This document shows, piece by piece, positions 36,262 through 58,632 of a stretch of 64,000 nucleotides of DNA. The position numbers were made by a program, and so were the translations under genes. The notes below the pieces were generated by a model that worked only from the letters and a program-made list of their open reading frames with translations, did not search any database and was not told the origin of the DNA. The DNA is from Reclinomonas americana ATCC 50394 (Eukaryota): the NCBI GenBank assembly GCA_048213135.1, contig PS015134.1, positions 1 through 64,000 of the forward strand, given 5' to 3'. The first letter of the stretch is position 1. The number at the start of each line of letters is the position of its first letter.

Positions 36262-37556
36262 TCATTCACGATTGGTATTCAGTCGACGAGTGAGTAACGC
36301 AATGATCGCTGCACGCGAAAAAGACCCTGTGTGAGTCACGAAAGACGGAAGAAGAAGAAGAGGAATCGCCGCGGCGTACCTTTGGCCGATCGCTCATCAA
36401 TGGCCTCCAGCAGATGTGCCACCTCGCTGCTGCTGATGCTGCCGCCACCTCCTCCGCCGCCGCCGACTCCTCCTCCGCTGCCGCCTCCACCGCCGCCAGT
36501 GGGACTGGAGAGTGTGTTGCCTGGAGTCAGTGATGAACCGGTGATGGTGCCAGGGAGCCCGGCTGTCGACGGGTCGAGAAGAGCGCCGGCAGAGCTAAGT
36601 GAGCCGACACCAGCAGCGGGAGCTTGCGACTGACTGGCGCCGTCGAGCACGAGGGCGCGCTGCTGGGGGAAGAACGACACGTCTTGCTTGGCCACCTGCG
36701 TCGAGAATTTGGTGAGAATGAAACCGTGGACACAACATTGAAGGAGAACAGCTTGCGAACCAACTCGGCCACATACTGCTCCGTGCCGGTGTAATCGGTG
36801 GGGTCCGTGTGTTGCAAGTACGTCTGGGTGGCAGCAGCAGCAAGAGGTGAGCGACAGAAGCATCAGAAACAAGTACTCTTGGTGCATGAACACAGACCAA
36901 GAAAAATACATATTGCCACATGTTGTGATCGTTGTGAATGTGATCCTCGAAACCTACCACAAGAAACCAGTCAGCGATGGCTGCAAACTCCTCCCACCCT
37001 TCCCCATCCCGCACGAACCGTTGCCAAGTCTCTCAAACACGGATCGAGGCAAGTTGCAAATGAAGCAGCGGGTATCGCGGTCCTCATTGACTGCGTCCTT
37101 TTGGGCACGCAGTTCACCAAACGTGTCGAGAATGATACCTGTGTTGCAACACAGTGAGTGCGCCGGAGTCAACATGTTATCTTACATCGCAAGCCACGCA
37201 CCGAAGATGAGATTCAACGTGACGATCGTAATGATGACTGCACACAGAGAACATTGCAGCGTGAGCTCCAGCAACGACTCGCCATCTAGCATTCTGGACA
37301 TGCGTACGTACAGACTGCGCAGTGCACACAAATATGGGATGAGTGTAACGCGACGCGGCAACAAATGAGCAGCAGAACGACGCACAGAAGAACAGACTGA
37401 AGATGCCAAATCCAACAATGTCGTCGGGTTTGAACAGTTGCTGTGGAACGACAATGCAGCGTGAGCTTGCGATTGGGAATTCAAGGTATATAGAGTTGTT
37501 TGCTCACCTCAAAAAACGACGCGCCACGCAAACTGCACGAAACAACACCGGTAAGG

Positions 37557-37599
<43 letters not shown>

Positions 37600-40500
37600 C
37601 ACCACTGATTTGCCTCGATACGCACCCATAGTTGGCGTAGCTGAAGAAGCACTTGATAAAGGACTCGCACAGGTAGGTCGGACCATCGGGATCGTCCGCA
37701 TTGAGGACGAACACATTGTTGTAGAACAGGAACGTGAAAATCTGCATTGGAGGCAAGTCGAGTGAGGAATGGAGCAAAATTGCCTCCATAGGTAGATGGG
37801 ACTCACCGAAAAGTCGTAAATCAAAAATGTTCCTGCAAGGGAGAGCAGAGAAGCACTGTGAGATCAGGCATGCACAGACGATCGAGCAGCAGTGCACACG
37901 AACCAAGCACTGCAAATCGCACGCGGGCAAAAGGAAAGGAGAGGCAAGGCGTATGAGTTAGTCTGACAACTGGGTACAACGACGGCAGACACACACCAAA
38001 CTGCGCGAAATAAAAGTAAGTAAACTGATGTAATACATGAATTGCCATTGCATAGCCATCGCAACTGTGAGGAACAGCGACCAGAGGTTGCGGGTGACGG
38101 ACCGAATGACGTTCTTCAGCACCTCGAAGCGCGTAATTAATTCAAACAGGTGGAATCTGCACAAACATCGTGAGCAGCGCAGAGCACACAACAGCGATAG
38201 AGCTGGAATGAAAAAAAACGCAACGCATAGAAAAAGTATGACACGGAGAGGCCGAGGATGCTGAATACAACATAGGCCAACTGCAGCGACCAACAAGATG
38301 AGACTCACGGAGTGATTTCATCAGACAAGAGTGAAAACCACGAAACGTGATACAAGAATTCCCCGTCGCGGATGAGAAGCCAGAAGAACTTGCACCAGAA
38401 CACGAATCCACGGCGAATGCTGGAGAACGCTTCCTGCGCGATTGCAAGCACTTGATAAGCAAACGCACACACATGCACCCACATACACACACACATACGC
38501 ACACACACATATACACACACGCACACACTCGCGACAAGACATGACAAGACACGACAGACACAGCACGCAACATCAATCTTTAATGATGGCTGCCATCGGT
38601 TGACCACAGAGACGACGCCGACACCTTGCCAGTACGTGTAAACTGCAAAAAGCAAGCAGGATGAGAAAGTGTTGTGCAAGAGGACAAGTGCGCTTATCAC
38701 GCAACGTAATATCACAGCTAATATGAGTTGCATGATGCCGAGCACCACCATAATCACCGACGTCGAATCGTCACGGAAATCCACAGTGCTGCACGAATTG
38801 CAAGTCGTGAGAACACGCACACGTGCAAAATCTCATCACATATCTACTCGCGTCTTTTCTCCTCTTCTTTCCCCTCTCCCCTTTCCCCTCCCTTCCCCTC
38901 CTCCCCACTTCCGCACGCAACATGGAATCCGCGTCCGGTCGATCCTTTACCACCAGCGTCAACAGCAGAATCAAGTTCATGGCCACGGCCAACCAGAAAC
39001 TGAGCTGCTTGAAGTACCAGTTGAAGCGGTTCAGCGCGTTGAAGAAGCGCTTCCGTTGCAGCTTCTGCCGGTGATTCATGATGCGCATCATGCGGGGGTA
39101 CTCGCTGAGGAGGCCCTCGATCTTGTTGGTCGACGTGTCGCGGTTCACCGTGGCATTGAAGAGGTCCTTGGTGGCCTCCGGCAGCAAGAACGCCGACTCT
39201 GGAATGGGGAAGTAGACGCGTTCCAGGTTGCGGTCACGGACGATCTCCACGCGCCCCGTGAAACGCCTGAACAGCTTCAACTTGGCCATGTCGGCACGCG
39301 TGTCGCTCGCAAACTTGGGGTCCACATCGATGAGCTGCCGCGCGAGCGAGTAGTACTCCATGCCGTACAAGAACTTGGCGTTGTGTGCACTCTGTGACTC
39401 GGGATCGGCAGGATCGGGAGGCTCCTCGATCTTGCCGAGAGTGTAGCGGCGCTGAGGTGTGGAAGGAGGACGCAGAATGAGTGAAAAGGGGGATAAACAA
39501 GCAACAACTCCGTGAAAAGCGTGAGACGCAACGAAAGTGTCGGAGCTGCGAGCCAGAGCATGCAGCGGCGCGTGGATCTCCACCACATGTGGAAGCTACA
39601 CACGGGGTAGAAGATGAGAATAAGAGGCCCAACATGGTATGTACGCGCAGCACTCGACTCCAAACGCAACAATGATATTGCCGCCAATGGCCTCGCGTAA
39701 TACACGCGGAATGTCGGGCAGGTTGCCGCCCTCGGTCATGCTGGCAACGACGACAAGTGCACTCCGCTGTCAATCGAGCGCAATGAGCACAATGCCCCTC
39801 GCATTTCCTCACGTCGGCAGCCACACAAACCAGCAGATTGTACTTGTCGACGTCGTCGCAGTCGTCGTAGGTCTTTTCGAGAATCTTGTTCACAATGAAG
39901 CTCAGCTTGGTCGACGCCAGAGCCACCTGTGCAAACAGAATGAGTCTCTCTCTGTGTGTGTAAGCGCGCGCGTGTGTGTGTGTGTCTCTCTCTCTCACTC
40001 TCACTCTCTCTCTCACTCTCTCTCTCTCTCTCTCACTCTCTCTGTCTGTCTCCCTCTCTCACTCTCTTTCTTTCTTTCTCTCCTACTCTCTCTGACTCTC
40101 TGTCCCTCCCCTTACTGACACAAGAGTGACAAACCTGATTGGGGATGCACGGGCCCTGAATGACTTCGGCCAGCGTGTTGAGGACCTGAATCGCCACCTC
40201 GATATTCGACGCATCAATGTACCGCTCAATGCTGCTCAGATACTGCAGTACCTCGAACACCAAGTTGATCGTTTCAGCGTGATTGCTCTGCACGCGGAGA
40301 TAGTTCTGCAGGCTGTGCGAGAGACAAAGCGTCACTCACGGCACGCTTGTGGTAAGAGGGCGGGGTAAGCGCACGCAACTTGAGGTAGTGGCCCTCGCAG
40401 AAGAGCTGCAAGAAGCGCATCACTTCGCGCACAAAGCCTGTCGCCTGGAAGTCTTCACTTGCAGCCTCCAGCAGGTACTGGGCATCTCTGTAGCGCAGCA

Positions 40501-43500
40501 CGTGAGTCACCAGAGTAACAATCACGTGATCTTGCTCACACACGCAACTCTTCATCGCCATCGTCACCCGCCTCCATCTCCTGCTTGTGGAACTCCAGAC
40601 GTCGATGCAAGGCGCGCTGCTCCTTGATCTCAGCAGTGGCGCGACGAATGCGGTCGCGAACGGAGGTGAAGAACTTTTCGTCGGCAGAGCTCACAAGGTG
40701 CTTGTAGATGGCCTCTTGCACATGGCGGTTGCCTCCGTCCAGCAGCGCAATGCCAAAATCAAGAGCCGCCTTGACAATCGCATCCATGGGCGAAGTGATG
40801 AGCTGTAGGACGAGTACTGCCGCACCAAAGTCACACAGCTTGTTCTGGATTGTGGTTTGCGGAACCGGCACCTCATTGGCCGTTGTGTCCGCCGACCACT
40901 CCAACAAGTGTGTGAGGATGCGCAGGCAGGTGACAAACAAGTCGGTCTCCTGTGCGTGCACGCGTTGATCCGAGCTGCGCACATTTGTTAGCGACAGAAA
41001 ATTTGAGATCTTCCCCCGCACACAAACTGACCTCAACAAGAAAATCAGCTTCTTCGCCTCCAACAAAAAGTCCGGCGACGACGGCTGCACCACTTGTCCG
41101 TGCGAGTCTGTCACAAACACCATGGCCAGGTCGTGGAATTCAGCAGTGGGGTCGCAGCTGGGCAAAGGAACAACACAAGTGAGCCTCCAAGGCATACGAA
41201 CAAGAAAGCTGCGTATCGACGCACCCCTTGGCGATAATCTCAGACAACTGGGTGAACCGGCGCTCCTCGCCCACGTCGGTCAGGTGCACTTGAGTCGTCG
41301 ACGATGCGTCGCTTTGCGATCGCATACCCTCGCCGATTTCAAACGCCTGTCGAATGAGAAACTGTCAAAACGGCGTGCGCTTGCGTGCATGGAGAGATGA
41401 GAGACGCGATCGCAACTCGCTCATTGTGACGCGACGGTGGAAGCGCAGTGCTCGACATGATGGCAGCCATGGCGCTGCTCAGCTCGCGCTGCTCTCGATG
41501 ACCGGTGACGTACGAGTCCAGTGCCACCAGCGCATCGATGAGGCTGAGAGCCACTCGCGGACCGCGTCTGCACGCACCAGTCGTGAACACACATGTGGAA
41601 GACAGGCACTCACGCGCAGCACCCCACGCAACGGATCCGATTTCCAGTCCATTCTGTCGTCCGTGCACAGGGAGGCAACCAACGGCAACATGCGCTTGAA
41701 CAGGTACTTGCGGTAGTGACCCAGAACTCGCTCACGCTCCGTCGCGTCGGTTGGCACCAGAGAGGGATCTGAGTGGCAAAAACTTTAACATGTGCGCTGG
41801 ACAGCCGCGATGGAAGAAAGTCGCTCACCAAAGGGAGGTGCGTCACGCAAGGCAGCCTCGGCGTCGGCGTTACGCGGCTGCAGCGCCATGAAGAATTGCA
41901 CATCGCGGATCAACGACTCGAGCAGCTGGCCCACAGGTCCAGCGCAAGAGAGCAACGCCGATCGTTGCTCGACATTGACGTACACCTCAAAAATGAAGAA
42001 CACCAGTGCACTCTTGACCTCGATAATGCACCCAGGCTCCACTGCCATGTCGATGGCCACATCGAGTGGCAGCAAGCTCTGGCACTTGACTTCGACCTGT
42101 CGCCAGCGGAAATCTGCTCAGAAAGGAAGCACAATCACTCTTACTGGCGACGCGAAAGCACTCACCAAATGTAGCCTGCCCAGCGAGCACATGGCAAGCG
42201 TCTCGAGCAATGAAATGTGGTACGCCAGTGGACTCTCCTCCGCGTGTGTGATGTGATTGCGCGCCGCCATGAGCTGCAACCTGCACGCCCCCATCATGTT
42301 AGCTGACAGGATAGGGAGAGAGACACGCCCCAGTCAGAAAACACACCGTCGTGCGCGCTCTTCCGGCGTGTTGAAGAGGATCATGGTCTCGTGCTCTCGC
42401 TCAGTCAGCATCTTGATAACCAGCTGCTGGTTGCGTCGAATGGGCCGCCCGTCGACCACCAGGATCACGTGGAAAAAGTTGGTGTAGCGCTGGTATCGAC
42501 CGCGTTCGACAATCAGCGTGATAAAATGCCGAATGTACTTTTCCTTGATGCTGCTGCACAGTACGCGATTGTTGCGGTAGATTTCCTCAATGTGTTCGGC
42601 GGCCTTGAGCTTGACACTGTTCAGCGGCAGTGAGCGCGCACAGAAAGCAGGAAAAGAGAAAGGCGAGGCCAATGTCACAAACCCCATTTGTGACAGGTAC
42701 AGTTCCATCTTGATCGCACATCGGCGCTGGTTTGCACGGTTCTTCCGCACAAACTGCGATGGAAGAAGACGCGAGGTGAGTATGAACTCACGGTCCATGT
42801 CTCTCATATTCACGACGCAACGTGCTTCAGCGCCTGGTAAATCGCCAAGAACAGTCCGCGACGCGACAGCTCCGTCGGCAAGTTGGCAAATGGCAGCTCC
42901 AACAACTCGTGCAGAATGTCGTCAAAGCCGAGGTTGCGCAGAATATTCTGCTTCTCTCGTGCTCCACGCTTCTGCTGCAGCTCTGCGCACGACGCGAACT
43001 AAGTATTTCACACACCGGGCACACACTGCAGCGAAAAACTGACTGAGAAAACAAACCCGCAATGACGGCGTTGCAGAGATTCATCATCTCCACTTCATCG
43101 GCGCTGACGACCTGTGAGCCCTTGGACTGGAGGTTGGAGAGGCGATTCACCATCTCGCGCAGGCGACGATACACGGCCACACTCTCGTCTGTCACCAACA
43201 GCAGCGACGAACGGACTTGCGTGGTGAGCTCGGCGTTCGAGCTGCCAGTGAGCCACATGGTTGTCAGCAATGTTTTCACAGCATGCGTGCTGTCGAGTTG
43301 CGCACCTGAACATGCGAAACAAGAGCTTGAAGCATGCCGTGCGCAGTTTCGGGTACTGGTAATTGCACAGGTACAACAGAATGCTGCGCAGCGAGTCCAT
43401 GTTCCCCAACATGTTGCAGTCCTGCATCGGCGGCGATGAGTGAAAACTACCACCACAATCCTCGGCATGTCGACGCACCTCAAAGAAGCGGTTCATGACA

Positions 43501-46500
43501 TCGCGCGTGACGGCCATGTCGGGTGAGCGTCGAAAAGCGACCAGGAACAGTGCCAGACGCTGGTCAAGGCGAATGTCGAGGAAAAAATTGAGCAAACTCA
43601 CGCATTCGATCTTGCACTTGACAATGACCGAGTTGATCTCGCTGGGGTCGAAGCGGCTGTGCGATGATCCACCAGCTTCGGCAGAACGCTGGGTGCCACG
43701 ACCTGGTCGACAACACGAATGTGAGAGGCGAAGGAAAATAACGTCATCAGCACCCCACAGACCTCCTGCGACCAGCTCGTCGGTACGCCCGTCGAGCAAC
43801 GCAATCACGTCGGCGGCGACCTTGGAAATGTTCATCAGCTGCCGCAGCTGACCCCAGTCGGCCAGCATTACGAGAACGCGAAGAACCTGCGGAGTGTGTC
43901 GGTGAGCGAGTGGAGCGCGACCGAGTGTCTCTCCCACCCTCCTCCGTCGCTCACGCAACACTGAGAATTAGTTGATTGTGCGACGCGCGGCCATAAAACT
44001 GTTGCCGATTCGAGCCGACAAACTCGCACGCAAACGCAAGCACAGCCCGAACACGCTCGTCAATGTCGGCCAGTGACGGCACATTGTCCAGTGCCGGCTC
44101 GTAGGCATTCAGGTCGGCCTCACTCGCAGCCTCAATCAGCGGCGACATCTCGCCGTGGAAGAACGAACGCCGGCTGTGCCGCTTGCTGTGTCGCTTGGAG
44201 GTGTGCGCATGGGGGGCAGCGGCGGTCGCCGAAGATGATTCCACGGGGTGCGGGTGAGACAGCGGCATGATATCCACTGTCGTGCCCGACGATGAGGCCG
44301 ATCCAATCGTGCGCACACCATCGTTGACTTGATCGCCTTGTGCGCTCCAGATCTGCAAGGCGGCGAGGGCGAATTCAGTTACTGTGTAGGAGAGAAGTGG
44401 GCAGTGCAGGGGAGAGACAGACCTGAATGTTGTGAATGCGTGGCGCGACGAAAAACGGATCCACGTCCACAAAGAGGTGCTGAATGAGCTGCACGTAGGC
44501 ACTGCGGAGCTTGGCCGGATATTCTGACGAGCGGGCAATCTCCAATGCCATCTCAAAGGGCACCAGTCCACTGATTATCCGGTGGGCGGCAGGGTTGCGT
44601 TGCTGAGGTGGAAGACGTGCGTGAGAGAGAGAGACAATTCGCAAGAGAGCAGCGCCACTCACCATGCACAGGGCGGCAAACAACTCAATCTGCGCCACGA
44701 GATAGTTGAATACCTCGGACGTCTTGTCGCGGCAAAAATTGACCAATTCGGAGTGGCAGCGAGTGCCGTCGTCCTCCATCCATTGAATGAGCGGGTTGGT
44801 CACCGGCGGCTGTGGAAAGCGCGCAGTGAGACTGGTGCGAATGAACACAGCACAACAGCATCAGCAGCGTCGGCGACGCAGACGCAACCGTCACGTGGTA
44901 CAACAAGTGCGGGCACGCCTGCACAAAGTTCTCCAGCACGTATTGCTGATTCGTGGGCACCACCAGCTTGCCGCACTTGACCAGCATGATGAGGAACTCA
45001 ATGTACCTGCCCAGTGGCAAAGGGAGAAGAAAGGGGAAGGGGGAAGAGGGAAAGAGGAGAAGAGGGGGAAGCGCAGATGAGCAAGACAACAGAGCGAGAG
45101 CTGCTTCTCGAAAAACTCACCGACTTGAACGACCCTTACGCGGCAAGTCCACGTAGAAGCGGAGTGTCTCGGATGACATGGAGTCGAGGAGTGCCCGGTT
45201 GTCACGAAACATCTCAATGAGCAGCTGTGACGTCATGAGGTGGTAGCCGTGCTGACTTTGGATGAATGGGATGTGTGGCACCACCGCTGCGCGGCCACGG
45301 TTCGACTCGCGGACAACGTGGTACAACAGGCGGTAGCTGAGGCGCACGACCTGAGCAATGTGCTGGTATTGTGACAGCAGCATGTCATCCAGGGTGTAGC
45401 CGCGGTCAAAGGGGGTGTGAATCGCCCTCATGCAGCGGTCAACCACCTGGAGAAGAAGAGAGGGAGGGAGGGAAATGATTAGCGAGAGAGATATTGCAGA
45501 GCAACGGAGGAGGAAACTCTTGCCACTAATGCGCAACTCGTCGGTCACGTAGGAGCCGCTGGTTACGCTTGATGGGGACACCCTCGCGCTCCATCGGATC
45601 TTGCACGTGCGACTCGGAGCACATGAAGATCAGGCGAGTGAGAGCCTCCAGCACGAACTGCAGCGACAGTGGACTGCACTCGTGCTGCTGGCGATGCGGG
45701 AACTGCATGGTGGCGGTTTCGCGGTGAGGGTGGCGGCTTTCGCTCGTTTCCACTGAACAGAACACACCTGACGAACAAAGTTGTCGAGCTCGGCGAGCAG
45801 CGACGTGGCCTGGTGCAGAGACGACACATCGAGGGTGGACGCCAGCACGACGTAGAATGCGTCTTCGTCGGGTCGCACAGTGGTCAGGGAGAGCAAGTGC
45901 GGCTTCTTCTCGGTTGTATCGTAGCCGATGAGTTGGGAGAATCGCGCCGCTCGAGTGGCCTCGTCGCTGCGTCGTTTGAGAAGGGGCGGGTGAGGTGAGT
46001 ATCGTGAGGGGGAGGAGGACGCACAATGAAACTCAACTCTGCCTCCTGCTCTTGCGCCTGCGAGCAGAGGAAGAAAGTCGATCGCTTGTGTCGCAAGCGC
46101 AGGTACGACTCGACGGGAATGAAGCCCTCGCTCTGCAAATATTGAATCAATAATACGGGAGCAACCATGGAATGACGCCTCGAGATGTCACCGACCTGGA
46201 AGAGCGGAAGGAAAACAAATAGAGTGTCGGGATCGTTGCGGTTGGCCGTCATGGTGACAATCGGACGCGCTGCTGCCAGGCGATGCAGCGGATTTTGACC
46301 TGAAAAATCACACAGCGAGTGAGTGACTGAGGACTGCTCTCTCATCAGCTTACATGTTGACTTCTTCACGACTCAACTGACAGTGGTGCGACGACCGAGT
46401 CGACTGAGCACTGCGCAGGCATCGTAAACACGTACACGGTGAGTCTTGCGCGATCGGAAAGAAGAGAACGTCATCGACATGTGCACGAACATCGCTCACT

Positions 46501-48702
46501 CGCACTGCGAGCTGGAGCGGTGAGGCGGGACAGCGCGGACTGAGCGCGCGAACCGATGCCTGATGATGCTGCAGCTGCCGCTGCCGAGCCCACTGTCACA
46601 GTCGACGCCTCCGACTCGTCCATCATGTCGCTCAATAAATCCTCGTGTGGATCGCTGATCGGTTGCAGAGCGTCGGGATCGGCCTTGAGATACAGGCCAG
46701 TGGCCAAGTGCTTGAGACGGACAGTGGCTTGCCAGGGGGCGAAACCGCCTGCGCAATGTGTGAGAGAGAGCATAGCAGAAAGTGGGGAGGGTGGGCGGTG
46801 GTGGTGACGCACCGCGACTGGCATCGGCCATTTCCACGTCCCACATAAAGTTGACAGACAGCTGGTCACTGCGTTTGCTGAGAGTGGAGGGGCGGATGTT
46901 CACTGCGGCGACGAACAATTAAGAGAGCCGTGATGTGATGGATCAGAGCAAAACAATGCACTGCACCTTCCAGTTGCTCCTGACGATCGTCGGCATTCAA
47001 AAAGCCCTCGAGTTCCTTGTGATACAAGTAAATGACATCACCTGCGACACAGCAAGGTGAATGGAACGAGACCATGAGCAGGAGAGCGCGCAAACACAAC
47101 GTACCAGCTTTGAGGAATCGCTGCGCCTCACTGGGCACATACGAGGCAAACTGATGCAACGCCCAGCGTGCCGTGGTGGTGGAACCCAGAATTTCGATGC
47201 GACCGTCGGGTTCCTCGAACCGCTCCGTACTCGGCGTCACATACAAGCGGAACTTGCGACTCAACAGCTGCACACTGTCGCCGAGACGAACAGCGTCGCC
47301 TTCCGTGCGCAACTTGGTCGACGGCTCCACCACAAAGGCGCAGCCAGAGTCGCCACTCTCGATCGGAACCAGCCGGGCGCACCCGGACTGCGTCTCCGCC
47401 GCGCGACGCGACACCGACACGAAGCGATCAGAGCGTACGTGCAGCAATTGCAGCGAGGAGCCGTAGGTGACCTTGCGACCGAGCGCACGCTGCGTTTCGG
47501 ACTCGTTCTGCCGCACCTCCGAGTCGCGTTTCAACTGCAGATCCTTCAGTCGATTGTACTCCTCCAAATCGTCCTCGTTGGTGGGCGGCGGAGTGCGCGT
47601 ATAATCAAACGACGAGTCGTACGACGACTGCTCCAGCTCGCGGTGAAAGTGCTTGGCCGCCGAGTACAGAATGGGAGGTAGAACGCGGAAGATGCAGTCT
47701 GCGAGGGGAGTGATGAGAAGAGAGAGGAGGGAGGAGAAGGGGAAGGGCGGAAGAATGGGGAACCTCGAAAGTTGGCCGGCAAGTTGCCTTCGTGGCCCTC
47801 GCTGATCGCGACACGAATGTCGACAATTCTGGGAGCGCTCGTGAGTCCACTCCATAAGCATCGAGACGAAATGCAAGTCGACATTGCTTACCCTTGAGTG
47901 CTGATGTAGCCCTCGACCAATTGCGTCTTGATCTCGTGACTGCAGTGCAAGCTGATCAAGTCTGCGATCAAAAAAGGGGGGGAGAGGGAGGAGGATGAGC
48001 AAGGGAAAGTGAGTGTGAGAGGATCCGGAGGGGGAGGAGGAGGAGGAGGAGGAGGAGGAGGAGAAGAAGAAGAAGAAGGAGAAGAACGAGGAGGAAGAGG
48101 AAGAACAAGAGAACGGAGGATGAGGAGGAGAAGAAAGAAGAGAAGAAGAAGGAAGAGAAGGTGGAGGAAGAGGAAGAATGGAAGAACGGAGTCCAGATCA
48201 ACGCATGCACACTCATGATCTCTCTCTCTCTCACACACACACATCACTCACTCATACACGCACACACTCATCACTCACTCACACACACACTCACTCACTC
48301 ACTCATACAGCATTCAGTCATGATCTCTCTGCATCACTCACTCACTCTTTGCCCCTTCCCTCTCTCTCCCTTCTCTCTCTCTCTCCCTACTCTCCCTCTC
48401 CCTCTCTCACACACACTGCACCTCCATAGCTCAAGAACTCCTCCGGCTGCGTGTCCGCGCGCAATGCATCCTCCACTGCGCCTCCACTTGCCACTTGACC
48501 AACGCCCAATGAGGCAAGCACAGTGGAGGCAGGAGCGGAGGAGGAGGAGGCAGGCAATGCACTGCAGAGTGTGTGAGAGAGTGAGACGACATGTCACACT
48601 CTTTCTCTTTGTGTGTGTGTGTGTTGCTTACCCGCGCAACACGGATGGTCGCGGTAGTTGCTCGCTCGTGGCCACGACTGTCGCCTGTGATGGGCGACTC
48701 AT
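36262..48702 (-). CDS. ITPR: Inositol 1,4,5-trisphosphate receptor family Ca2+-release channel, full length, many exons
   Basis: FLSYGDLISL..EGYISTQG, DCIFRVLPPILYSAAKHF, VTYGSSLQLLHVRS, MIR-type VRLKHLATGLYL, RNQRLLRD, LIEMFRDNRALL, RIH region FLQLFCEGHYLKLQNYLRVQ, TLAEVIQGPCIPNQ, GRVEIVRDRNLERVYFPIP, TM region LKNVIRSVTRN, LNLIFGIILDTFGELR, CFICNL..HIHNDHNMWQY..DYTGTEQYV. Confidence 0.96.
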
Positions 48703-49537
48703 GAATGGCCCTCTCTCACTCTCTCTCTCTCTCTCCTTTGTTGATTAGACAATGTGTGTCCGTCCGCGCGCGTGTCCGAACATTGACTTTTTCTTGGACT
48801 CCTCCTCTCCACACAGTCTGTGTGTTGCTGCTCTGTGTAGTGCTGCCCACGCAAGAGCACGCTTTGTGTGAGGCTTGCTGGGAGACGCATTGAAACCGCG
48901 GCACTGATTGTATTTGTTCGAAAACTTGATATGTTGTGATCATGATCGACGTCGCGCGTCTTTCACGACCGTGGGAAGCTGCACTGTGAAGGACAAGTAC
49001 AGAGGTGGTGCGAGGTCTCAATTATTGTGCAGACGGGGAAAGCAATCGAGCTCGAGAACACAACCTCCGCGCCAAGAAATCCTTTTGAGGCCAAACCGCG
49101 TTTGATTGGCTTTGCCTCCTGAAAGGGAAGAGGTCTCTAGGAGAAGAGCGTGCGCCTATATTATTGGTGTGCCAAGGTCAGTGTTGGCAAGCTTGTCGCA
49201 CAATTGCAATTCGTGTAAAGCTTCGAAGTGATGTGTCCTCTCCTGAATAGGTGTGCTTCTGCTCGCCGCTTCCTTCCTCCAGAGAGAGAACCACTTGGTG
49301 GTGTAGATGGAGGGTTGCAGTCGATCGGCCTAGGCCTCGACCTCGACGTACGTCGACGTCGACATGATCATTATCGTCGACGTTGACTCTTGCCGCATAT
49401 GCATTTGAGAGGCATCAGCCACCTCCGATGATGAACTCCAGCACCGTGTGATGGGCGGTGACTGCCACCATGTGTGAAGTGCTTGCAAGAGAAAGAGAGA
49501 CATGTCCCACAATACAAGCATTTCTCCGTGAGCGTGC

Positions 49538-50617
49538 ATGTCCGCGCCATTCTCCCCCCACTCCCTCTGCCTGCACGGACACAGCGGCAGCGTGCATGCT
49601 GTGACCATCACCGCCGACGCTCGCCTCATCGTGAGCTCCGGCTCCGACAAGACGCTGCGCGTGTGGTCTCGTCGAGGTGCCGAGGTGCGTCGCATGGAGG
49701 TCCCCGACTCTGCACGCCAGTGTGCAGTCATCACCCCTGACGGCCGCCACCTGGTGACTGCCGGCGACCGTGACAAGACTCTGCGCGTGTGGTCACTGGC
49801 GACAGGAGACCTCGTGCGACAACTGGAGGGACACCGACAAGGCGTGCTCTGCGTGGCCGTCACCAACACGGGCGAGCATGTGGTGAGCGGAAGCTGGGAT
49901 TGCACCGTGCGCGTGTGGTCCGTGGAGAGTGGCGAGCAAGTGCGGCTACTGCACAGCCCCGTGCACTTTGTGCGCTCGGTCGCTGTCACGCCCGACAGTC
50001 GCTACATTGTGGCTGGTCGCGCAGACAAGATGCTGCGCGTGTGGCCACTGCTGCAGGAGGAGGAAGAAGGATGGCACCTAGGGCGACACGTGTCCGTCGT
50101 GTCGTCCGTCGCAGTCTCGCCCGACGCGCAGCTCGTGGTGGCATGCGCCAACGTTGAGTGGGCGGTGCATCTGTGGGCGCTGGCCACGGGCGAGCAAGTA
50201 CATCGTATGTGCGGGCACACTGCAATCGTGTCCGCTGTCGCCGTCACCGCCGATAATCGTTTCGTGGTGAGCGCAAGTGCAGACGCAACTGTGCGTCTGT
50301 GGTCGCTGGCGACGGGACGAGAAGTGCAACGACTGGAGGCGCATGCAGGGCCAGTCACGAGCATTGCGCTTAGTGCGGATGGTGAGCACCTGGTCAGTGG
50401 AGGCGCAGACTCGACTGTGCGCGTGTGGTCCACCCCGCGAGGTCTCGCCCGCGCGGAACTCGATTGCGCACGATTCGCGCTGCAAGCTGTGCATGACATG
50501 CAACTGGAGGAGGAGGAGGAGGAGGAAGTGCGGTGCTTGGCGGAGATCGTGCTGCGATGCTTCATGGTGGAGGAGGCCGAAGTCATTGAGATGATGGTCG
50601 CCAGTGACACCAAGTGA
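49538..50617 (+). CDS. Intronless WD40-repeat protein (~7 blades, 359 aa)
   Basis: Regular GH..V..VAVT.D...VSGS.D.T(L/V)RVW repeats, then an acidic C-terminal tail. Confidence 0.9.
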   Translation: MSAPFSPHSLCLHGHSGSVHAVTITADARLIVSSGSDKTLRVWSRRGAEVRRMEVPDSARQCAVITPDGRHLVTAGDRDKTLRVWSLATGDLVRQLEGHRQGVLCVAVTNTGEHVVSGSWDCTVRVWSVESGEQVRLLHSPVHFVRSVAVTPDSRYIVAGRADKMLRVWPLLQEEEEGWHLGRHVSVVSSVAVSPDAQLVVACANVEWAVHLWALATGEQVHRMCGHTAIVSAVAVTADNRFVVSASADATVRLWSLATGREVQRLEAHAGPVTSIALSADGEHLVSGGADSTVRVWSTPRGLARAELDCARFALQAVHDMQLEEEEEEEVRCLAEIVLRCFMVEEAEVIEMMVASDTK

Positions 50618-50667: not shown

Positions 50668-53600
50668 ATGGAGCTCACTCGGTGCGCGTCTCTCGCCCTC
50701 TCTCTCTCTCTCTCTGGTGTTTGTTGTTGACTCACTCTTGTTTGTTTGTGTGTCTGTCAGACTCGACTTTGCGGGGTTCGGTGAGAACGATCCGCCTTCG
50801 CTGATTGGGCACTCGGCAAATGTGATCGAACACAGCTTGTTTACCTATGGTGGTGCGTGAGAGGAGGAGGAGAAGGGGGAGGGGGAGGGGGCAAAGGAGA
50901 GGGAGGGAGGGAGGGAGGGAGGAAGGGAAAGAAGAAAGAAAAGAAGAGAAAGTGATGAGAACGAGCCAAGCAGAAGAGGAGGGAGAGAGAAAGCAGAGAA
51001 CAGGGGTAGGCTGGGACGGAAGAGACCGAGAGAGTGAGAGAAAGAGACAAGAATAAGGAGCTGGAGAGAGAGGAGAGAAGGGGTGGGAGAGAGAAACTGC
51101 AAAGAGATTGAGATTGAGAAGGATGCTTGCAGGCAGACCGACTGACACACTGAGAGAGAACAGCGAGATGGAGAGACTGCGAGTGACCGCAGAGTCTCAT
51201 GCAACCTGACTGTCGCGCAGGCACAGAGAAAGAATGAATGAAAGAACGAAAGAGAGAGAGAAGGAAAGAAAGAAAGAAGGAGAGAGCGAGTGTCAGGCGG
51301 ACAGACTGACACACACAGGGAACCGAGAGTGAGAGAGAGTGGGAGAGAGAGAGAGAGGCAGGCAGGCAAACAGAACGCAGGAGAGAGAAAGAGAACGAGA
51401 GACCAAGCCAAGATTGAGAAAGAAAGACCTCATTCTCCTCCTCCCCCCGCCCCGTCCCCCCTTTGCTTCTCCCCTCCTCCTCACTTGCTATCCTCACATC
51501 AGGATGGACCTCTGGTCTCGGCTGCAACGCCGACCTCCGCGTGCTGGATCTCGACACCCGCTCGTGGCACGTATTACAGATCGAGGGCCCACACGTTCCA
51601 CGACCCAGCTACCGTCACGGATCGTTGAGTGCACTGACACGCACACACACGAGGAGGCTCATTCACGTACTCACTTTGTCTATCCGCGCACAGCACGACG
51701 ATTCTCTCCAAAATGTACCTGCTTGGCGGGTGCGAACCGCGCTCGAATGGAACACTGCGTCGACACGGCACGCTGTACGAGGTCGATCTGAACACGCTGT
51801 CGTCGGTGGCCATTGCCAGTTCGCGCTCCAGTGCCGATGCACCACCGCCGTGCAGCAGTCTCACGCTGGAGCACTGTGGCAAGCTGCTGGTGCAGTTTGG
51901 CGGCTGGGACGGCAACACCAACAACAGCAACATTCACATTCTCGATGCGCGAGTCGGCACGTGGTCGCGACCGCCAGTGCGTGGCCGGCCACCACTGCCG
52001 CGCTGTCGGCACGCCTCGGCGTCGCTGCCGGATCAGATGCAGCTGTTTGTGTCGGGTGGCATGGCGCTGGGTGGTCGCACACTGGACGACTTTTACATGT
52101 TTGACATGCGCAATCAGTCGTGGCTGACGCTGCCGTCGCTGCGCACGGGCGGCCACTTGTCGCGCTGCTCGCACACGCTGACGCCCTACCAGGGAGACTT
52201 TGTGTGCGCCGGTGGCTATCACCACTCGGAGAAGGCCGAGGGCATTCTCGGCGACCTCATCTTCTTCGACACCAAGAAGAGCGAGTGGTATGAGCCGCAC
52301 TTTTCGGAGACCTGCGAGCCGTTCCAGCCGCGGGAGAGTCACACGTGTTCGTCAGGTGAGACAAAAATGAGGGGAAAGTGAGGGAAAGGAGTGGATTGTG
52401 TGCGTGGGTTTGGCTCACGCATCACGGCTTTCTTTGTTGATTTTTGCCTTGTTGTGTCGCTCTCTTTCTCTCTCTCTCTCTTTCTCGCACTGCTTGTGTG
52501 CTTGTCCGAGTTGCATCCTTTGCAACATGATTTCTGCCATTTGCAGTCTATTCACCTCCAAATCAGATCTACCCACCTTGGATAGCACCTCGTGCATCAC
52601 CGTGGCATCTGTCTCTTTCTCTCTCTCTCTCGCACTGCTTGTGTGCGTGTCCGAGTTGCATCCTTTGCAACATGATTTCTGCCATTTGCAGTCTGTTCAC
52701 CTCCGAATCAGATCTACCCACCTGGGATAGCACCTCGTGCATCACCGTGGCATCTGTTTGTCTTCTCTGTTTGCGTGTGCGTGTGTTCGGACTTGTCTGT
52801 TGTCTGTTTCCTCTTCTGTTACGCCTCTGACTGTCTCTTGTCACTCTCACTGTCGGGTTGCTTTTTTGGGTGCCTTCTTTCTGTTGTTTTTGAGTCCCCT
52901 TCGCCCCCTATCCCCTTCCTCCCCCCTTCCCCCTCACAGGCTACGGCGGTCGCAAGCTGCTCTACTTTGGAGGCATGTCAACAGCGGCGCACTTTCAGGA
53001 CATGTTCCGCCAGGTCGACTGCATCGAGGCGCCAGACAAGTGGATTCACATTTGTCGGCGTATGAATGGTGCGACAATGACACACACCCGAATCCTTCTC
53101 TTTCCCCGTGTTTCTTCTCACTGTTGTCGATCGCAGCCTCCGTGTCACGTGTGGAGCGACAAATGAACCTCACCAGCCTGATGCAACACATGGGACGCGA
53201 CGTGTCGGAGCTGGAGCGCCTCGATGCCGAGCAGTTTGAGAAGACGGCACTCCTCGCGGCCTCTCACAGCGGCACGGTCAGCCCGAATAGCACAGCCTCT
53301 GCGTCGACGGCGCCAAGCTCCGCCGCAGCCGCGCTGGCCGCCCATCCACCGTCACTCTTCCGTCAGCGTGTGCAATCCAAGCAGCGCATCGCCTTTCTGA
53401 GCCGCACCGAGCGTTTCTGGAACACCTCTGTGGAGAAGATGCAGGAGGCCGTGACACGCCTGGTGAATCCGCTGGCCTCCAATCCGCTGCGCAGATTAGG
53501 CCGTCCTTATTCAGGTGAGCGAGATGGACAGTTTCTGCTTCTTCCGCGCATCAGTCCTCACTGCCCTTCATAGATGGCGCGCTGAAAACGCTGATTTGCG

Positions 53601-57065: not shown

Positions 57066-58632
57066 ATGCAGACACCGATGAAAGCCGGTCTCACGTGGCT
57101 GCTTCTCTCGGCGCTCTTTGTGTTTGTCGTGTATGAGGCGCGATGTGGGTCGTCGACGAGTGGATTGCGCAGTGCAGGTGGGTGCGAGAGAGAGAGAGAG
57201 AGAGAGAGAGAGGAGGGAGGAGAGGAGGAGAGAGAGACGAGAAGGAGACAAGAAGAAGAAGNNNNNNNNNNNNNNNNNNNNNNNNNNNNNNNNNNNNNNN
57301 TAGCATGTTCACTGCAAGCCTTCCGCGAGCCACCACTGCCGGCGTTCTCCAACTCGACCGCAGCACTGGATGCACTGGCCGATCGTCTCTTTGCGCCGTA
57401 CATTGCGCGACACGCGAACGTGCGAGAGCGCTTCCGCCAGAGTGCCGACGATCCCGCACTGCGCTTTGTGGTGCTCGACGACCCGGAGGGCGCCGGTCTC
57501 GGGAACAGCTTGCAGACGGCGGTGTCGGCGTTTGTGCTGGCCGTCCTCACCGATCGCACGCTGGTGCTGCATCCGCGCAGTCAGCGCTTTCGACGACTCT
57601 TCGATCCGGCCAGCGTCAACTGGGAGCTGCCGGAGCTGAGTGTGGAGCACATGGAGAATCGCAAGCAGGTGCTCACGCTGGACCAGCATCATCCGCACCT
57701 GTATCAGTCGATGTTGTGCGGCGACCTCGACGACTTGTACAGCGACACCAAGTATCTGGTGGTCAGCGGCAATCAGTACTTTGTGGAGCTGATGCGGCAC
57801 AACAAGCGCTGGAAGCGGCGCTTTGAGGAGGCCTTTGGTCCCTTCCAGGGTCGCATCTTCCGGCCGGCCATGCGCGCCATGGTGCAACCGAGCAAGAAGG
57901 TGCAGGCGCGCGTGGATCAATTCATGCGACGGCACTGGCGCGAGGCCGACAATGTGTCGACCATTGGCCTGCAGATTCGTACCAACACCATGTCGGGATT
58001 CGACTGGGGCAAGAAACTCACCACCGATCAGCTGGAGACGTTTTTCAACTGCGTGAAACGCATCGTGTATGGCGGCATGCTCAAGTCGAGCGACTATCAG
58101 GTGTTTCTCGCCACCGATTCGGAGGCGGTGAGAGACCGGGCCAAGGTGGTGAGTGGCGATGGTCGATGGACATGAAGAAGAGAATGATGTGTGTTTGTGT
58201 GCTTATGCGAGCGCATGCAGGTCTTTGGCTCGCGCCTGCTCTACCGCAACATGCCGGTGAAGAGGGATGCCACGGGTGAGGTGGACGCCTTGGTCGATCT
58301 GCTGCTGCTGTCGCAGACGGAGCAGGTCAGTGACCGTCGACTGTGGCACTCGTGCTGTGTGTTGCCCTCACTCACTGCGTTGACAGATGTTTGTGTCTGC
58401 CGGCTCGACATTTGGGTGTGCGGCGCACGCGTGGGCGGCGCTGCGACCGTTTGTCATCATGGGCGACGATCAGTGCATGCAAGACGTGAACACCGAGCCC
58501 ATCATGCATCAGTGGGGCAAGGCGCTTGTGCTCAATGCGGATGTGGAGGGCGGTGGCGCCATGTGCATGCCGAGGGAGGAGTTCCAAGACGAGCATGTGA
58601 TCAATCATGTACATCGGTGGAGCTTGGGGTGA
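57066..58632 (+). CDS. Type II membrane fucosyltransferase, GT37 (xyloglucan fucosyltransferase)-like
   Basis: N-terminal TM LTWLLLSALFVFVVY; GAGLGNSLQTAVSAFVLAVLTDRTL; IGLQIR (motif I), VFLATDS (motif II), ALVDLLLLSQTEQ|MFVSAGSTFG (motif III). Confidence 0.85.

What the first reader, a model, noticed from the sequence alone, without database searches (positions are those of the whole stretch)
37386..37741. IP3 receptor with a non-canonical selectivity filter (GLRGASFFE instead of GLRxGGGxGD)
Seen: splicing 37626-37741, the 25-nt exon 37508-37532 and the next exon gives CESFIKCFFSYANYGLRGASFFEQLFKPDDIVGFGIFSLFF. Established: IP3R and RyR pores carry a highly conserved GGG(V/I)GD filter directly after GLR. 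Here the glycines are replaced by Ala/Ser/Phe while the pore helix, TM6, gate region (LNLIFGIILDTF) and C2H2 Zn site are intact. Inference: altered selectivity or conductance, or a non-conducting regulatory subunit.
Basis: partly seen in the sequence, partly recalled or inferred. Interest (0 to 1): 0.7.

Follow-up and report, generated by a model that had tools for sequence, protein, structure and literature searches.

The report
IP3R-like channel with aromatic-glutamate filter
A protist gene for an IP3-receptor-type calcium-release channel really lacks the usual glycine-rich pore filter, but amoeboflagellate relatives share the same odd filter type, so it looks like a conserved, unstudied pore design rather than a one-off defect.

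Summary
On the minus strand, exons 37741-37626, 37532-37508 (25 nt) and 37440-37386 splice in frame through canonical GT..AG sites. They read ...CESFIKCFFSYANYGLRGASFFEQLFKPDD... No frame of the gene span encodes GGGxG[D/E].

The gene (about 47.9-36.5 kb) belongs to the IP3R family: Ins145_P3_rec, two RIH, RIH_assoc, TM6, the Zn-site Cys/His and the Ca2+-activation Glu/Glu/Thr are all present.

The filter is not unique. A 14-row group has the same design, R-x-x-x-(F)-(W/F/L)-E-(D/N), and the same short loop. Its named members are Naegleria and Willaertia proteins, most annotated as hypothetical or MIR-domain proteins. The closest filters are Naegleria fowleri GLRTGGFFEDQF and Willaertia GLRTDGFFEDNF, against GLRGASFFEQLF in the window. 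Two of three trees place the window gene as sister to this group (SH-aLRT 98 and 99). AU tests reject neither that placement nor the rival one.

The best reading is a gated cation channel whose filter uses a conserved glutamate ring with aromatic residues. Conductance and selectivity are untested. No RNA evidence was obtainable. I found no paper on this filter type.

The parts
46869..47699 (-). Large N-terminal exon region (open frame): suppressor / beta-trefoil domain of IP3R type. It contains a short in-frame intron-like insert.
   Evidence: Pfam Ins145_P3_rec, 2e-20, 73.3 bits. PDB phmmer gives IP3R1 66 bits against RyR1 28 bits.
45120..45629 (-). First RIH domain exon
   Evidence: Pfam RYDR_ITPR, 9e-08. 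tblastn is colinear with homologues.
42337..42921 (-). Second RIH domain exon
   Evidence: Pfam RYDR_ITPR, 1e-09.
40132..40486 (-). Two exons (40486-40373 and 40311-40132) of the RIH_assoc region. They carry the two Glu of the Ca2+-activation site (FCEGH, AEVIQGPC).
   Evidence: Pfam RIH_assoc, 66.1 and 25.7 bits. Both Glu columns are E in the window. Residue roles come from PMC9522344 (passages).
38921..39445 (-). 175-aa exon before and into TM1
   Evidence: Open frame. It matches P0001 at 61 bits and homologues by tblastn.
38027..38155 (-). S4-S5 linker / TM5 exon (FHLFELITRFEVLKNVIRSVTRN...). It probably ends at the weak donor A|GTTTAC.
   Evidence: tblastn with P0009 covers 38155-38027. 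Pfam Ion_trans gives 19.4 bits, below the cut-off. The donor is inferred from the sequence.
37807..37832 (-). 26-nt exon (..TFLIYDFS) in TM5 / start of the luminal loop
   Evidence: Read from the sequence: acceptor cag|GA, donor TCG|gtgagt. It is needed to keep the frame between its neighbours. Inferred, not confirmed by RNA.
37626..37741 (-). Pore-helix exon: IFTFLFYNNVFVLNADDPDGPTYLCESFIKCFFSYANYG
   Evidence: The Cys pair aligns with the family's conserved pair.
37533..37625 (-). 93-nt intron with a (GT)n microsatellite. It is in frame and has no stop.
37508..37532 (-). 25-nt microexon encoding (G)LRGASFFE. This is the filter position.
   Evidence: It ranks first of 1710 alternative splicings and aligns column for column with GLRSGGGVGD and GLRTGGFFED.
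37386..37440 (-). Exon QLFKPDDIVGFGIFSLFF: short luminal loop and start of TM6
   Evidence: Loop length is 25, against 25-27 in the non-GGG group and a median of 30 in the others.
37202..37237 (-). TM6 exon (F)IITIVTLNLIF(G)
37019..37138 (-). TM6 end / gate and first half of the Zn site: GIILDTFGELRAQKDAVNEDRDTRCFICNLPRSVFERLGN(G)
   Evidence: PDB phmmer gives RyR2 31.8 bits and IP3R3 23.7 bits.
36898..36953 (-). Exon FEDHIHNDHNMWQYVFFL: the two His of the Zn site
   Evidence: C,C,H,H all present.
36752..36823 (-). Exon TYLQHTDPTDYTGTEQYVAELVRK. It carries the Thr of the Ca2+-activation site.

Best explanation
The window carries one intact, multi-exon gene on the minus strand, about 47.9 to 36.5 kb, for an IP3R-family intracellular cation-release channel of a poorly sampled protist. 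The pore loop is correctly read through a 25-nt microexon and has no glycine-rich GGGxGD filter.

The sequence GLR-GASFFEQ has the same design as the filters of a group of heterolobosean and unnamed paralogues. That design is R-x-x-x-(mostly F)-(W/F/L)-E-(D/N), followed by a luminal loop about 5 residues shorter than usual. The window gene is most likely the sister lineage of that group, so the odd filter would be an inherited, selected feature and not a lesion.

Proposed mechanism (inferred). The protein forms a tetramer gated like other family members; the Ca2+-activation Glu/Glu/Thr, the TM6 gate and the Zn site are all kept. The narrow part of the pore is lined by a ring of four conserved glutamates, packed against aromatic side chains, instead of glycine carbonyls plus an Asp ring. 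It would still conduct cations, with conductance and selectivity that differ from canonical IP3R/RyR.

Shown here: exon structure by comparison, family membership, the shared filter type and its conservation.
Inferred: tetramer formation, Glu-ring permeation, the ligand.
For: Gene and family:
- Pfam finds Ins145_P3_rec, RIH twice and RIH_assoc.
- The N-terminal exon matches IP3R1 at 66 bits and RyR1 at 28 bits.
- tblastn is colinear with 2400-3400-aa homologues from 47.7 kb to 36.7 kb.

Exons:
- Six pore exons are in frame with GT..AG sites.
- The model ranks first of 1710 alternatives and second of 282.
- No GGGxG[DE] occurs in any frame of the gene.

Shared filter:
- Alignments place the window's GLRGASFFEQLF under P0167 GLRTGGFFEDQF, P0017 GLRTDGFFEDNF, P0011 GFRGESFWEDIY and P0045 GLRGGGFWEDIT.
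- Identity over the 12 filter columns is 7/12 to P0167 and 3/12 to the vertebrate-type P0050.
- The window's pore scores 49.0 bits against the group HMM and 32.6 against the HMM of the other 26 rows.
- Loop length is 25, against 25-27 in the group and a median of 30 in the others.

Constraint within the group:
- R is present in 14/14 rows and E in 13/14.
- P0045 and P0120 are 46% identical overall but 12/12 in the filter.
- P0017 and P0167 are 61% identical overall and 10/12 in the filter.

Phylogeny with the filter columns removed:
- The window is sister to the 14 rows with SH-aLRT 98 (41 rows, LG+G4).
- Support is 99 with 30 rows under LG+C20+F+G4.

Gating parts kept:
- The Ca2+-site E, E and T are present in the window, and in 14/14, 13/14 and 12/14 rows of the group (roles from PMC9522344).
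- The Cys pair and the Zn C,C,H,H are present.

All 13 named heterolobosean proteins whose pore I read lack GGGxGD. No canonical heterolobosean paralogue appeared in either search.
Against: - There is no RNA evidence: no run was listed.
- The first tree (28 rows) put the window with the canonical sequences, as a weak sister (SH-aLRT 84) of P0009+P0025. It lay on the far side of a 98-supported branch from the non-GGG group.
- AU tests reject neither placement: p 0.355 for window plus group on the 28-row data, and p 0.248 for window plus P0009/P0025/P0180 on the 41-row data.
- The window's TM6 (LNLIFGIILDTF) and C-terminal linker (RLGNGF, without the group's 3-residue insert before ANEG) look canonical. 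The TM6 exon is 51-56% identical to P0009/P0025 but only 37-42% to group members.
- The window has Q where the group has D/N.
- It lacks the R and D at the luminal start of TM6, having F and S. R is kept in 14/14 and D in 12/14 group rows; each is kept in 22/26 other rows. This could mean relaxed constraint.
- The window row used for the trees is a concatenate of homology-supported segments, not a verified cDNA, and its composition differs from the alignment's.
- Ion conduction, tetramer formation and the ligand were not tested.
Confidence: 0.6

Rival explanations
1. Convergence. The window gene belongs to a canonical-filter lineage, near the amoebozoan-type sequences P0009/P0025/P0180. It lost the glycines on its own and reached a similar aromatic-Glu solution.
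For: - Tree 1 places the window as sister of P0009+P0025 (SH-aLRT 84), inside a 98-supported set that excludes the non-GGG group.
- The AU test does not reject window+P0009+P0025+P0180 (p 0.248).
- TM6 and the C-terminal linker are of canonical type, and the TM6 exon is 51-56% identical to P0009/P0025.
- The highest overall identity is to P0180 (33-34%).
Against: - Both larger trees give SH-aLRT 98 and 99 for window plus non-GGG group with the filter columns removed.
- The constrained alternative is 24.6 lnL units worse.
- The filter is 7/12 identical to P0167, and the same short loop is shared.
- The pore scores 49.0 bits on the group HMM and 32.6 on the HMM of the other rows.
Confidence: 0.2
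2. Pore-dead or regulatory subunit. The protein no longer conducts. It acts as a sensor, scaffold or modulatory partner of another channel subunit.
For: - The glycines, on which published mutagenesis shows conductance depends, are gone (PMC2995152, passages).
- The window also lacks the Asp-equivalent (it has Q) and the R/D pair at the luminal start of TM6.
Against: - The replacement motif is conserved across paralogues and genera, with Glu in 13/14 rows.
- The gate, the Ca2+ site and the Zn site are kept.
- No canonical heterolobosean partner subunit appeared in either search, and no second IP3R-like gene lies in the window. The rest of this genome could not be searched.
Confidence: 0.15
3. 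Artefact or pseudogene. The microexon is a wrong gene model, the assembly around the (GT)n repeat is collapsed, or the locus is decaying.
For: - The exon is only 25 nt and lies next to a microsatellite.
- The window has 15 runs of N.
- No RNA support was obtainable.
- The window's own protein did not appear in the protein searches.
Against: - The model ranks first of 1710 alternatives, and no alternative gives GGxG.
- The splice sites are canonical and the frame is kept through six exons.
- The motif matches independent proteins from other organisms.
- There is no N run inside 36023-57261.
- Homology is colinear over the whole gene.
Confidence: 0.06

Closest known systems
Heterolobosean IP3R-like paralogues. 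Examples: P0167 'hypothetical protein FDP41_012062 [Naegleria fowleri]', P0017 KAL9643554.1 [Willaertia magna], P0168 'inositol 1,4,5-triphosphate receptor 2 [Naegleria gruberi]'.
   Same: - Same domain order.
- Same filter design, R-x-x-x-F-(W/F/L)-E (P0167 GLRTGGFFEDQF).
- Same short loop from filter to TM6 (25-27 residues).
- Cys pair, Zn site and Ca2+-site residues are kept.
- The window is sister to the group in two of three trees.
   Different: - Only about 28-31% identical overall.
- The window has Q instead of D/N after the Glu.
- It lacks the 3-residue insert before ANEG in the C-terminal linker.
- It has the canonical-type TM6, LNLIFGIILDTF.
- It lacks the R/D pair before TM6.
- I found no paper characterising any of these proteins.
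Metazoan IP3 receptors (ITPR1-3)
   Same: - N-terminal beta-trefoil, RIH, RIH_assoc and six-TM channel.
- GLR before the filter.
- TM6 LNLIFG-IIDTF-like.
- C2H2 Zn site.
- Ca2+-activation E/E/T.
   Different: - GGGVGD is replaced by (G)ASFFEQ.
- The luminal loop is shorter.
- The IP3 contacts are only partly kept: R265 is R, R269 is L, R504 is K, K508 is R, R511 is R, Y567 is S, R568 is N and K569 is R. The residue list itself is recalled.
Paramecium Ca2+-release channels (CRC-I to -VI)
   Same: These are protist IP3R/RyR-like channels in which the GGG(V/I)GD motif is reduced to GG(V/I)G, varied, or absent (CRC-VI). The authors leave their permeation properties open (PMC3213138, passages).
   Different: The ciliate-type filters seen here are GF-K-x-(N/D)-GG-(I/L)-GG (P0198, P0204, P0108), not aromatic-Glu. 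In the trees P0108 and P0198 lie far from the window.
Oomycete ITPR homologues
   Same: Protist ITPRs with filter variants that are still regarded as cation channels (PMC7399828, passages).
   Different: Their variants keep the three glycines (GGGIGD or GGGLG(G/S)). The window keeps none of them.
Ryanodine receptors
   Same: The TM6 / C-terminal exon scores higher against RyR2 (31.8 bits) than against IP3R3 (23.7 bits). The Ca2+-site residues are shared.
   Different: - The locus is about 11 kb including introns, too small for a protein of about 5000 aa.
- The N-terminus is IP3R-like.
- No SPRY or RyR-repeat hit occurred in the exons scanned.
- The filter is not GGGIGDE.

Membership tests
IP3 receptor family (ITPR) | N-terminal suppressor / beta-trefoil domain (Pfam Ins145_P3_rec) | tested here: met
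   2e-20, 73.3 bits against a cut-off of 23. IP3R1 N-terminal structures match at 66 bits.
IP3 receptor family (ITPR) | MIR domain | tested here: inconclusive
   An 88-aa exon piece gives MIR at 22.8 bits, below the 25.6 cut-off. The whole domain is split over exons that I could not join for a tool.
IP3 receptor family (ITPR) | Two RIH domains and RIH_assoc | tested here: met
   RYDR_ITPR at 9e-08 and 1e-09. RIH_assoc at 66.1 bits against a cut-off of 28.5.
IP3 receptor family (ITPR) | C-terminal channel domain with pore helix, TM6 gate and C2H2 Zn site | tested here: met
   Alignments. The Cys pair and C,C,H,H are present. The TM6 exon matches RyR2 and IP3R structures. Ion_trans scores only 19.4 bits on a 43-aa exon.
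IP3 receptor family (ITPR) | GGG(V/I)GD selectivity filter | tested here: not met
   The window has GASFFEQ at these columns. No GGGxG[DE] occurs in any frame of the gene. None of 1710 alternative splicings has GGxG.
IP3 receptor family (ITPR) | Ca2+-activation site (two Glu in ARM3, one Thr in the linker) | tested here: met
   E, E and T are present in the aligned columns. Residue roles come from PMC9522344 (passages).
IP3 receptor family (ITPR) | IP3-coordinating residues (R265, T266, T267, G268, R269, R504, K508, R511, Y567, R568, K569 of IP3R1; list recalled) | tested here: inconclusive
   The window has R, P, S, T, L, K, R, R, S, N, R at these positions. Non-metazoan canonical homologues also lack YRK, so these residues do not decide whether IP3 is bound.
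IP3 receptor family (ITPR) | IP3-gated Ca2+ release | not testable with these tools
   This needs expression and functional assays.
Ryanodine receptor | About 5000 aa with SPRY and RyR-repeat domains | tested here: not met
   The locus is about 11 kb and is colinear with 2400-3400-aa IP3R-like proteins. The N-terminus matches IP3R at 66 bits and RyR at 28 bits. No such Pfam hit occurred in the exons scanned; not every exon was scanned.
Non-GGG (heterolobosean-type) IP3R-like group | Filter R-x-x-x-(F)-(W/F/L)-E-(D/N) | tested here: met
   The window has R-G-A-S-F-F-E-Q. In the group, R is 14/14, F 9/14, W/L/F 13/14, E 13/14 and D/N 13/14. Only the last position differs (Q).
Non-GGG (heterolobosean-type) IP3R-like group | Short loop between filter and TM6 | tested here: met
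   The window has 25 residues. The group has 25-27. The others range from 24 to 35 with a median of 30.
Non-GGG (heterolobosean-type) IP3R-like group | C-terminal linker with a 3-residue insert (..FD-x-(K/R/H)-AN-(E/Q)-G) and TM6 of the VVFG-x-(V/I)L(D/E)SF type | tested here: not met
   The window has RLGNGF without the insert, and LIFGIILDTF.
Non-GGG (heterolobosean-type) IP3R-like group | Phylogenetic placement with the group | tested here: inconclusive
   The window is sister to the 14 rows with SH-aLRT 98 and 99. It is placed elsewhere in the 28-row tree. AU p values of 0.355 and 0.248 reject neither placement.

The most novel reading that the evidence does not exclude
The IP3R/RyR superfamily holds a second, old pore design. 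In it, four glutamates backed by aromatic residues replace the glycine-carbonyl filter. This design is the only release-channel pore in Heterolobosea, and through this gene it extends to a distant protist lineage. It gives a selectivity unlike the weakly selective canonical channels, for example much higher Ca2+ selectivity as in glutamate-ring channels, or a preference for another cation.
Probability: 0.3. Interest if true: 0.65.

Novelty: new variant of a known kind. Interest (0 to 1): 0.45.

Why it matters
Almost everything known about permeation in IP3R and RyR channels rests on the GGGxGD motif. Published point mutations within it change conductance (PMC2995152, passages).

Here the motif is replaced wholesale while the gating machinery is kept. 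The replacement is conserved across several genera, including a human-pathogenic amoeba. That makes it a natural experiment on how this channel family selects ions, and it is directly testable by expression in IP3R-null cells.

It also bears on annotation. Pipelines or surveys that use GGGxGD as the mark of a functional release channel would misjudge these proteins.

The interest is moderate rather than high. Divergent filters in protist members have been reported since 2011 (PMC3213138). Relatives with this filter are already in public databases, although I found no paper that discusses them.

Tried and rejected
- RNA evidence: the look-up of sequencing runs on window:36400-46300 listed no RNA holder, so read laying could not be used. 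None was listed; this is no evidence either way.
- Own genome: none is held, so paralogues elsewhere in this genome, for example a canonical one, could not be sought.
- Earlier findings: none for this genome.
- The search for homologous proteins with the 175-aa exon and 'longer' lengths gave one hit, P0001, which is truncated before the pore. With the 41-aa TM6 exon it gave 3 candidates and no hit. That tool reads only proteins up to 2000 aa in 'longer' mode.
- The pore-helix frame gave no IP3R or RyR match against PDB sequences at E<=10.
- The metagenome scan gave two distant loci (32% identity). L001 ends before the pore. L002 has a canonical-type GLLLGGGIGD. Neither helps with the microexon.
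- Structure prediction of the window protein was not run, because a spliced product is not accepted by the folding tools. I did not fold a homologue or run complex prediction. A monomer model or a pass/fail tetramer score would not show the filter geometry.
- Literature: searches found no paper on a Naegleria or heterolobosean IP3R pore, or on an aromatic-Glu filter. In one search, 6 papers hold Naegleria plus IP3R; judged from titles and abstract starts, none is about IP3R channels or their pore. In one search, 1 paper holds Naegleria plus InsP3R, and in the passages shown the two terms occur in unrelated places. Subscription journals and supplements were not searchable. Alzayady et al. 2015, which I recall only from a citation in PMC7016017, was not seen.
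- Considered and rejected: retention of the 93-nt intron (in frame, adds 31 residues, mostly from the (GT)n repeat). It scores lower than the spliced form. Skipping the microexon breaks the frame (read).


Full report
**1. What is in the sequence**

The finding lies on the minus strand. Reading 38400 to 36800 and translating three frames shows a chain of short exons.

IFTFLFYNNVFVLNADDPDGPTYLCESFIKCFFSYANYGLRGASFFEQLFKPDDIVGFGIFSLFFFIITIVTLNLIFGIILDTFGELRAQKDAVNEDRDTRCFICNLPRSVFERLGNGFEDHIHNDHNMWQYVFFL

- Every junction is GT..AG. Donors are of one type (G|GTGCGT, G|GTGAGC, G|GTTCGT), and acceptors sit behind pyrimidine-rich tracts.
- The intron before the microexon (37625-37533) is 93 nt, holds a (GT)n repeat, and is in frame without a stop.
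- No GGGxG[D/E] is encoded in any of the six frames of 37202-37741 or of 36400-48000. The 7 matches elsewhere in the window are poly-Gly runs.

**2. Is the microexon more than a convenient reading?**

I enumerated all combinations of 0, 1 or 2 GT..AG introns between 37741 and 37386, using 47 donors and 11 acceptors and holding the third intron fixed. This gave 1710 distinct in-frame, stop-free peptides. I scored them against an HMM of the pore region built from 40 database homologues.

- No peptide contains GGxG.
- Varying introns 2 and 3 (282 peptides) puts the model second, behind a variant with a 3-nt exon that only adds one Phe.
- The HMM columns derive from an alignment made with the window row present, which favours the model slightly.
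- No RNA run could be listed, so the exon stands on comparison alone.

**3. The gene**

Pfam finds the following on exon translations:
- Ins145_P3_rec at 2e-20 on 46869-47699.
- RIH at 9e-08 on 45120-45629 and at 1e-09 on 42337-42921.
- RIH_assoc at 66.1 bits on 40132-40311.
- A sub-threshold MIR piece and a sub-threshold Ion_trans piece.

Against PDB sequences, the N-terminal exon matches IP3R1 at 66 bits and RyR1 at 28 bits. The TM6 / C-terminal exon matches RyR2 at 31.8 bits and IP3R3 at 23.7 bits. tblastn with eight, and then with all, long homologues is colinear from about 47.7 kb to 36.7 kb and finds no second such gene in the window. The locus is about 11 kb including introns, so it is an IP3R-sized gene and not a RyR-sized one.

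**4. Relatives**

A HMMER search of 1.84 billion representatives with the N-terminal exon gave 469 proteins at E<=1e-3. The best is 39% identical, so no close orthologue is in the library. The window's own protein did not appear.

Of the listed proteins of at least 1000 aa, 27 showed the filter region. Seven of those had a non-glycine filter of one type. Two more of the type, P0017 and P0019, were missed by my first pattern. A second search seeded with the pore region of P0011 gave 58 proteins.

Names show that every named member of this type comes from Heterolobosea: Naegleria fowleri, N. lovaniensis, N. gruberi and Willaertia magna. They are annotated as hypothetical, predicted or MIR-domain proteins. 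One is annotated 'inositol 1,4,5-triphosphate receptor 2'. Other members are unnamed (ENA, Logan, JGI).

Their filters:

| Filter | Proteins |
|---|---|
| GLRTGGFFEDQF | P0167 |
| GLRTDGFFEDNF | P0017 |
| GFRGESFWEDIY | P0011, P0161, P0162 |
| GLRGGGFWEDI(T/V) | P0045, P0120, P0168 (T); P0169 (V) |
| GFRSE(A/S)SWEN | P0163, P0164 |
| GFRAEASWEN | P0026 |
| GFRSGSFWED | P0165 |
| GFRSDSAFEN | P0166 |
| SVRSEAFLEN | P0086 |
| FVRGEGFLED | P0126 |
| GIRTKFVLEN | P0170 |
| WLRDEGFPEG | P0005 |
| GLRSGGGWDIF | P0019 |
| GLRGASFFEQLF | window |

All 13 named heterolobosean proteins whose pore I read lack GGGxGD. No canonical heterolobosean paralogue appeared in either search. That is weak evidence that none exists.

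**5. Column-by-column comparison**

Two MAFFT alignments (28 and 41 rows) align the window without a gap to both types.

- S-G-G-G-(V/I)-G-D of the canonical rows lies over G-A-S-F-F-E-Q of the window and over T-G-G-F-F-E-D of P0167.
- In the 14-row group, R is 14/14, the third Gly position is F in 9/14, the V/I position is W/L/F in 13/14, the last Gly position is E in 13/14 (P0019 has a gap), and the Asp position is D/N in 13/14.
- In the other 26 rows the three Gly positions are G in 20, 24 and 24 rows.
- Over the 12 filter columns, the window is 7/12 identical to P0167, 6/12 to P0011 and 3/12 to the vertebrate-type P0050.
- The stretch between the Asp column and TM6 is 25 residues in the window, 25-27 in the group, and 24-35 (median 30) in the others.
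- The window's pore scores 49.0 bits on the group HMM and 32.6 bits on the HMM of the other 26 rows.
- Within the group the filter is conserved beyond the background. P0045 and P0120 are 46% identical overall and 12/12 in the filter. P0017 and P0167 are 61% overall and 10/12. Other pairs are less striking: P0086 and P0126 are 45% overall and 6/12.

**6. Where the window differs from the group**

- It has Q at the D/N position.
- It has the canonical-type TM6 (LNLIFGIILDTF) and C-terminal linker (RLGNGF), without the group's 3-residue insert.
- It alone lacks the Arg and Asp at the luminal start of TM6, having F and S. Arg is 14/14 in the group and 22/26 in the others. Asp is 12/14 and 22/26.
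- No alternative splicing restores these residues.

**7. Phylogeny**

The window row is a 1840-aa concatenate of 15 homology-supported segments plus the spliced pore and one further exon, with stops at intron read-throughs set to X. The filter-to-TM6 columns were removed from all trees.

| Tree | Rows, model, columns | Placement of the window |
|---|---|---|
| 1 | 28 rows, LG+G4, 2175 columns | The seven non-GGG rows form one group (support 100). The window is outside it, weak sister (84) of P0009+P0025. |
| 2 | 41 rows, LG+G4, 2160 columns | Sister to all 14 non-GGG rows, SH-aLRT 98. |
| 3 | 30 rows, LG+C20+F+G4 PMSF, 1874 columns | Same placement, SH-aLRT 99. |

- The AU test on the Tree 1 data does not reject window plus the seven rows as one group (delta lnL 4.3, p 0.355).
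- Tree 2 adds nine group members and seven others. P0100, P0118 and P0128 were left out of it.
- Tree 3 drops 11 long or outlying rows: P0200, P0194, P0207, P0191, P0188, P0028, P0115, P0125, P0132, P0209 and P0190.
- The alternative grouping of the window with P0009, P0025 and P0180 is 24.6 lnL units worse but is not rejected (p 0.248).
- All trees are 'quick' searches, and the window's composition departs from the alignment's.

I read this as shared ancestry being favoured (about 0.7) but not shown.

**8. Gating parts**

- The Cys pair of the pore helix and the C,C,H,H of the Zn site are present.
- PMC9522344 (passages read) names three residues as the Ca2+-activation site of IP3R1: rat E1978, E2042 and T2657.
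- These map to P0050 E1969, E2033 and T2651. The E-to-E spacing is 64 in both. The E-to-T spacing is 618 in P0050 and 615 in rat.
- The three residues are E, E and T in the window. In the group they are kept in 14/14, 13/14 and 12/14 rows.
- The IP3 contacts are only partly kept: R, P, S, T, L, then K, R, R, then S, N, R. The residue list is recalled. P0050 shows RTTGR at 265-269 and R, K, R, Y, R, K at the positions shifted by 15.
- Non-metazoan canonical homologues also lack YRK, so the ligand stays open.

**9. What is known**

- GGGXGDX is conserved in IP3R and RyR, and point mutations within it change conductance (PMC2995152, passages).
- Parasite homologues were reported to keep GGGXGD (PMC3194816, passages).
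- Oomycete ITPRs have GGGIGD or GGGLG(G/S) (PMC7399828, passages).
- In Paramecium only three CRCs keep the full motif. Many have variants, and CRC-VI has practically no similarity in this region. The authors leave permeation open (PMC3213138, passages).
- I found no paper on a heterolobosean IP3R pore or on an aromatic-Glu filter. Subscription journals and supplements were not searchable.

**10. Mechanism**

The step from sequence to function is inference. The filter type is conserved, one Glu is almost invariant, aromatic residues flank it, and the gate and Ca2+ site are intact. This points to a working gated pore whose cation site is a ring of four glutamates rather than glycine carbonyls plus Asp. 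Such rings give high Ca2+ affinity in unrelated channels (recalled). I therefore expect cation conduction with different selectivity and probably lower conductance.

The window protein has only this one acidic residue in the filter (Q follows it) and lacks the R/D pair before TM6. It may therefore differ further from its relatives, or be under weaker constraint.

**11. Verdict**

- The gene is a divergent member, or the sister lineage, of an undescribed but database-visible IP3R-like group with a glycine-less filter.
- Interest is moderate.

Noticed in passing
window 37533-37625 (minus strand): The intron before the microexon is 93 nt, in frame, free of stops and mostly (GT)n. Intron retention would insert 31 residues into the pore loop without breaking the frame, and repeat-length changes in steps of three dinucleotides would keep it in frame.
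   Followed up: partly
window 37807-37832 and 38027-38155 (minus strand): A second tiny exon (26 nt, ..TFLIYDFS) is needed to keep the frame in TM5. The exon before it seems to end at a weak donor, A|GTTTAC. TFLIYDFS and the following IFTFLFYNNVF look like two copies of one short motif.
   Followed up: partly
window 37386-37440 (minus strand): The window protein has F and S where nearly all family members have Arg and Asp at the luminal start of TM6. Arg is kept in 14/14 and 22/26 rows; Asp in 12/14 and 22/26.
   Followed up: yes
window 49532-50614 (+), 51638-52378 (+), 57303-58172 (+), 60512-61201 (-): Neighbouring open frames give Pfam hits: WD40 repeats (5.4e-55), Kelch repeats (3.8e-46), a xyloglucan-fucosyltransferase-like domain (3.9e-08) and an amino-acid transporter (7e-08).
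   Followed up: partly
whole window: There are 15 runs of N (20-467 nt). Open frames show many (GT)n and (GA)n microsatellites and poly-Ser, poly-Gly and poly-Glu/Arg low-complexity stretches. GC content is 43-59% in 4-kb windows. This looks like a draft eukaryotic scaffold.
   Followed up: no
proteins P0209, P0211, P0191, P0207, P0198, P0204, P0108, P0127, P0131, P0196: Other non-canonical filters turned up among protist homologues. GFRGEYG(M/V) occurs in P0209 and P0211. P0191 and P0207 have no recognisable motif. A further type, in named ciliates (P0198 Blepharisma, P0204 Tetrahymena) and several unnamed proteins, reads (G/S/A/E)(F/L)K-x-(N/D)G(G/A)(I/L/V)GG.
   Followed up: no
L002 1355-1873 (+): A metagenome contig encodes a canonical-type pore in which the Arg of GLR is Leu (GLLLGGGIGD).
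   Followed up: no
window 36400-36530 (minus strand): Downstream of the last recognised exon, one frame reads a long Gly run (..GGGGGGSGGGVGGGGGGGGS..). It lies after the C-terminal domain and is not a filter. Whether it is coding is unknown.
   Followed up: no
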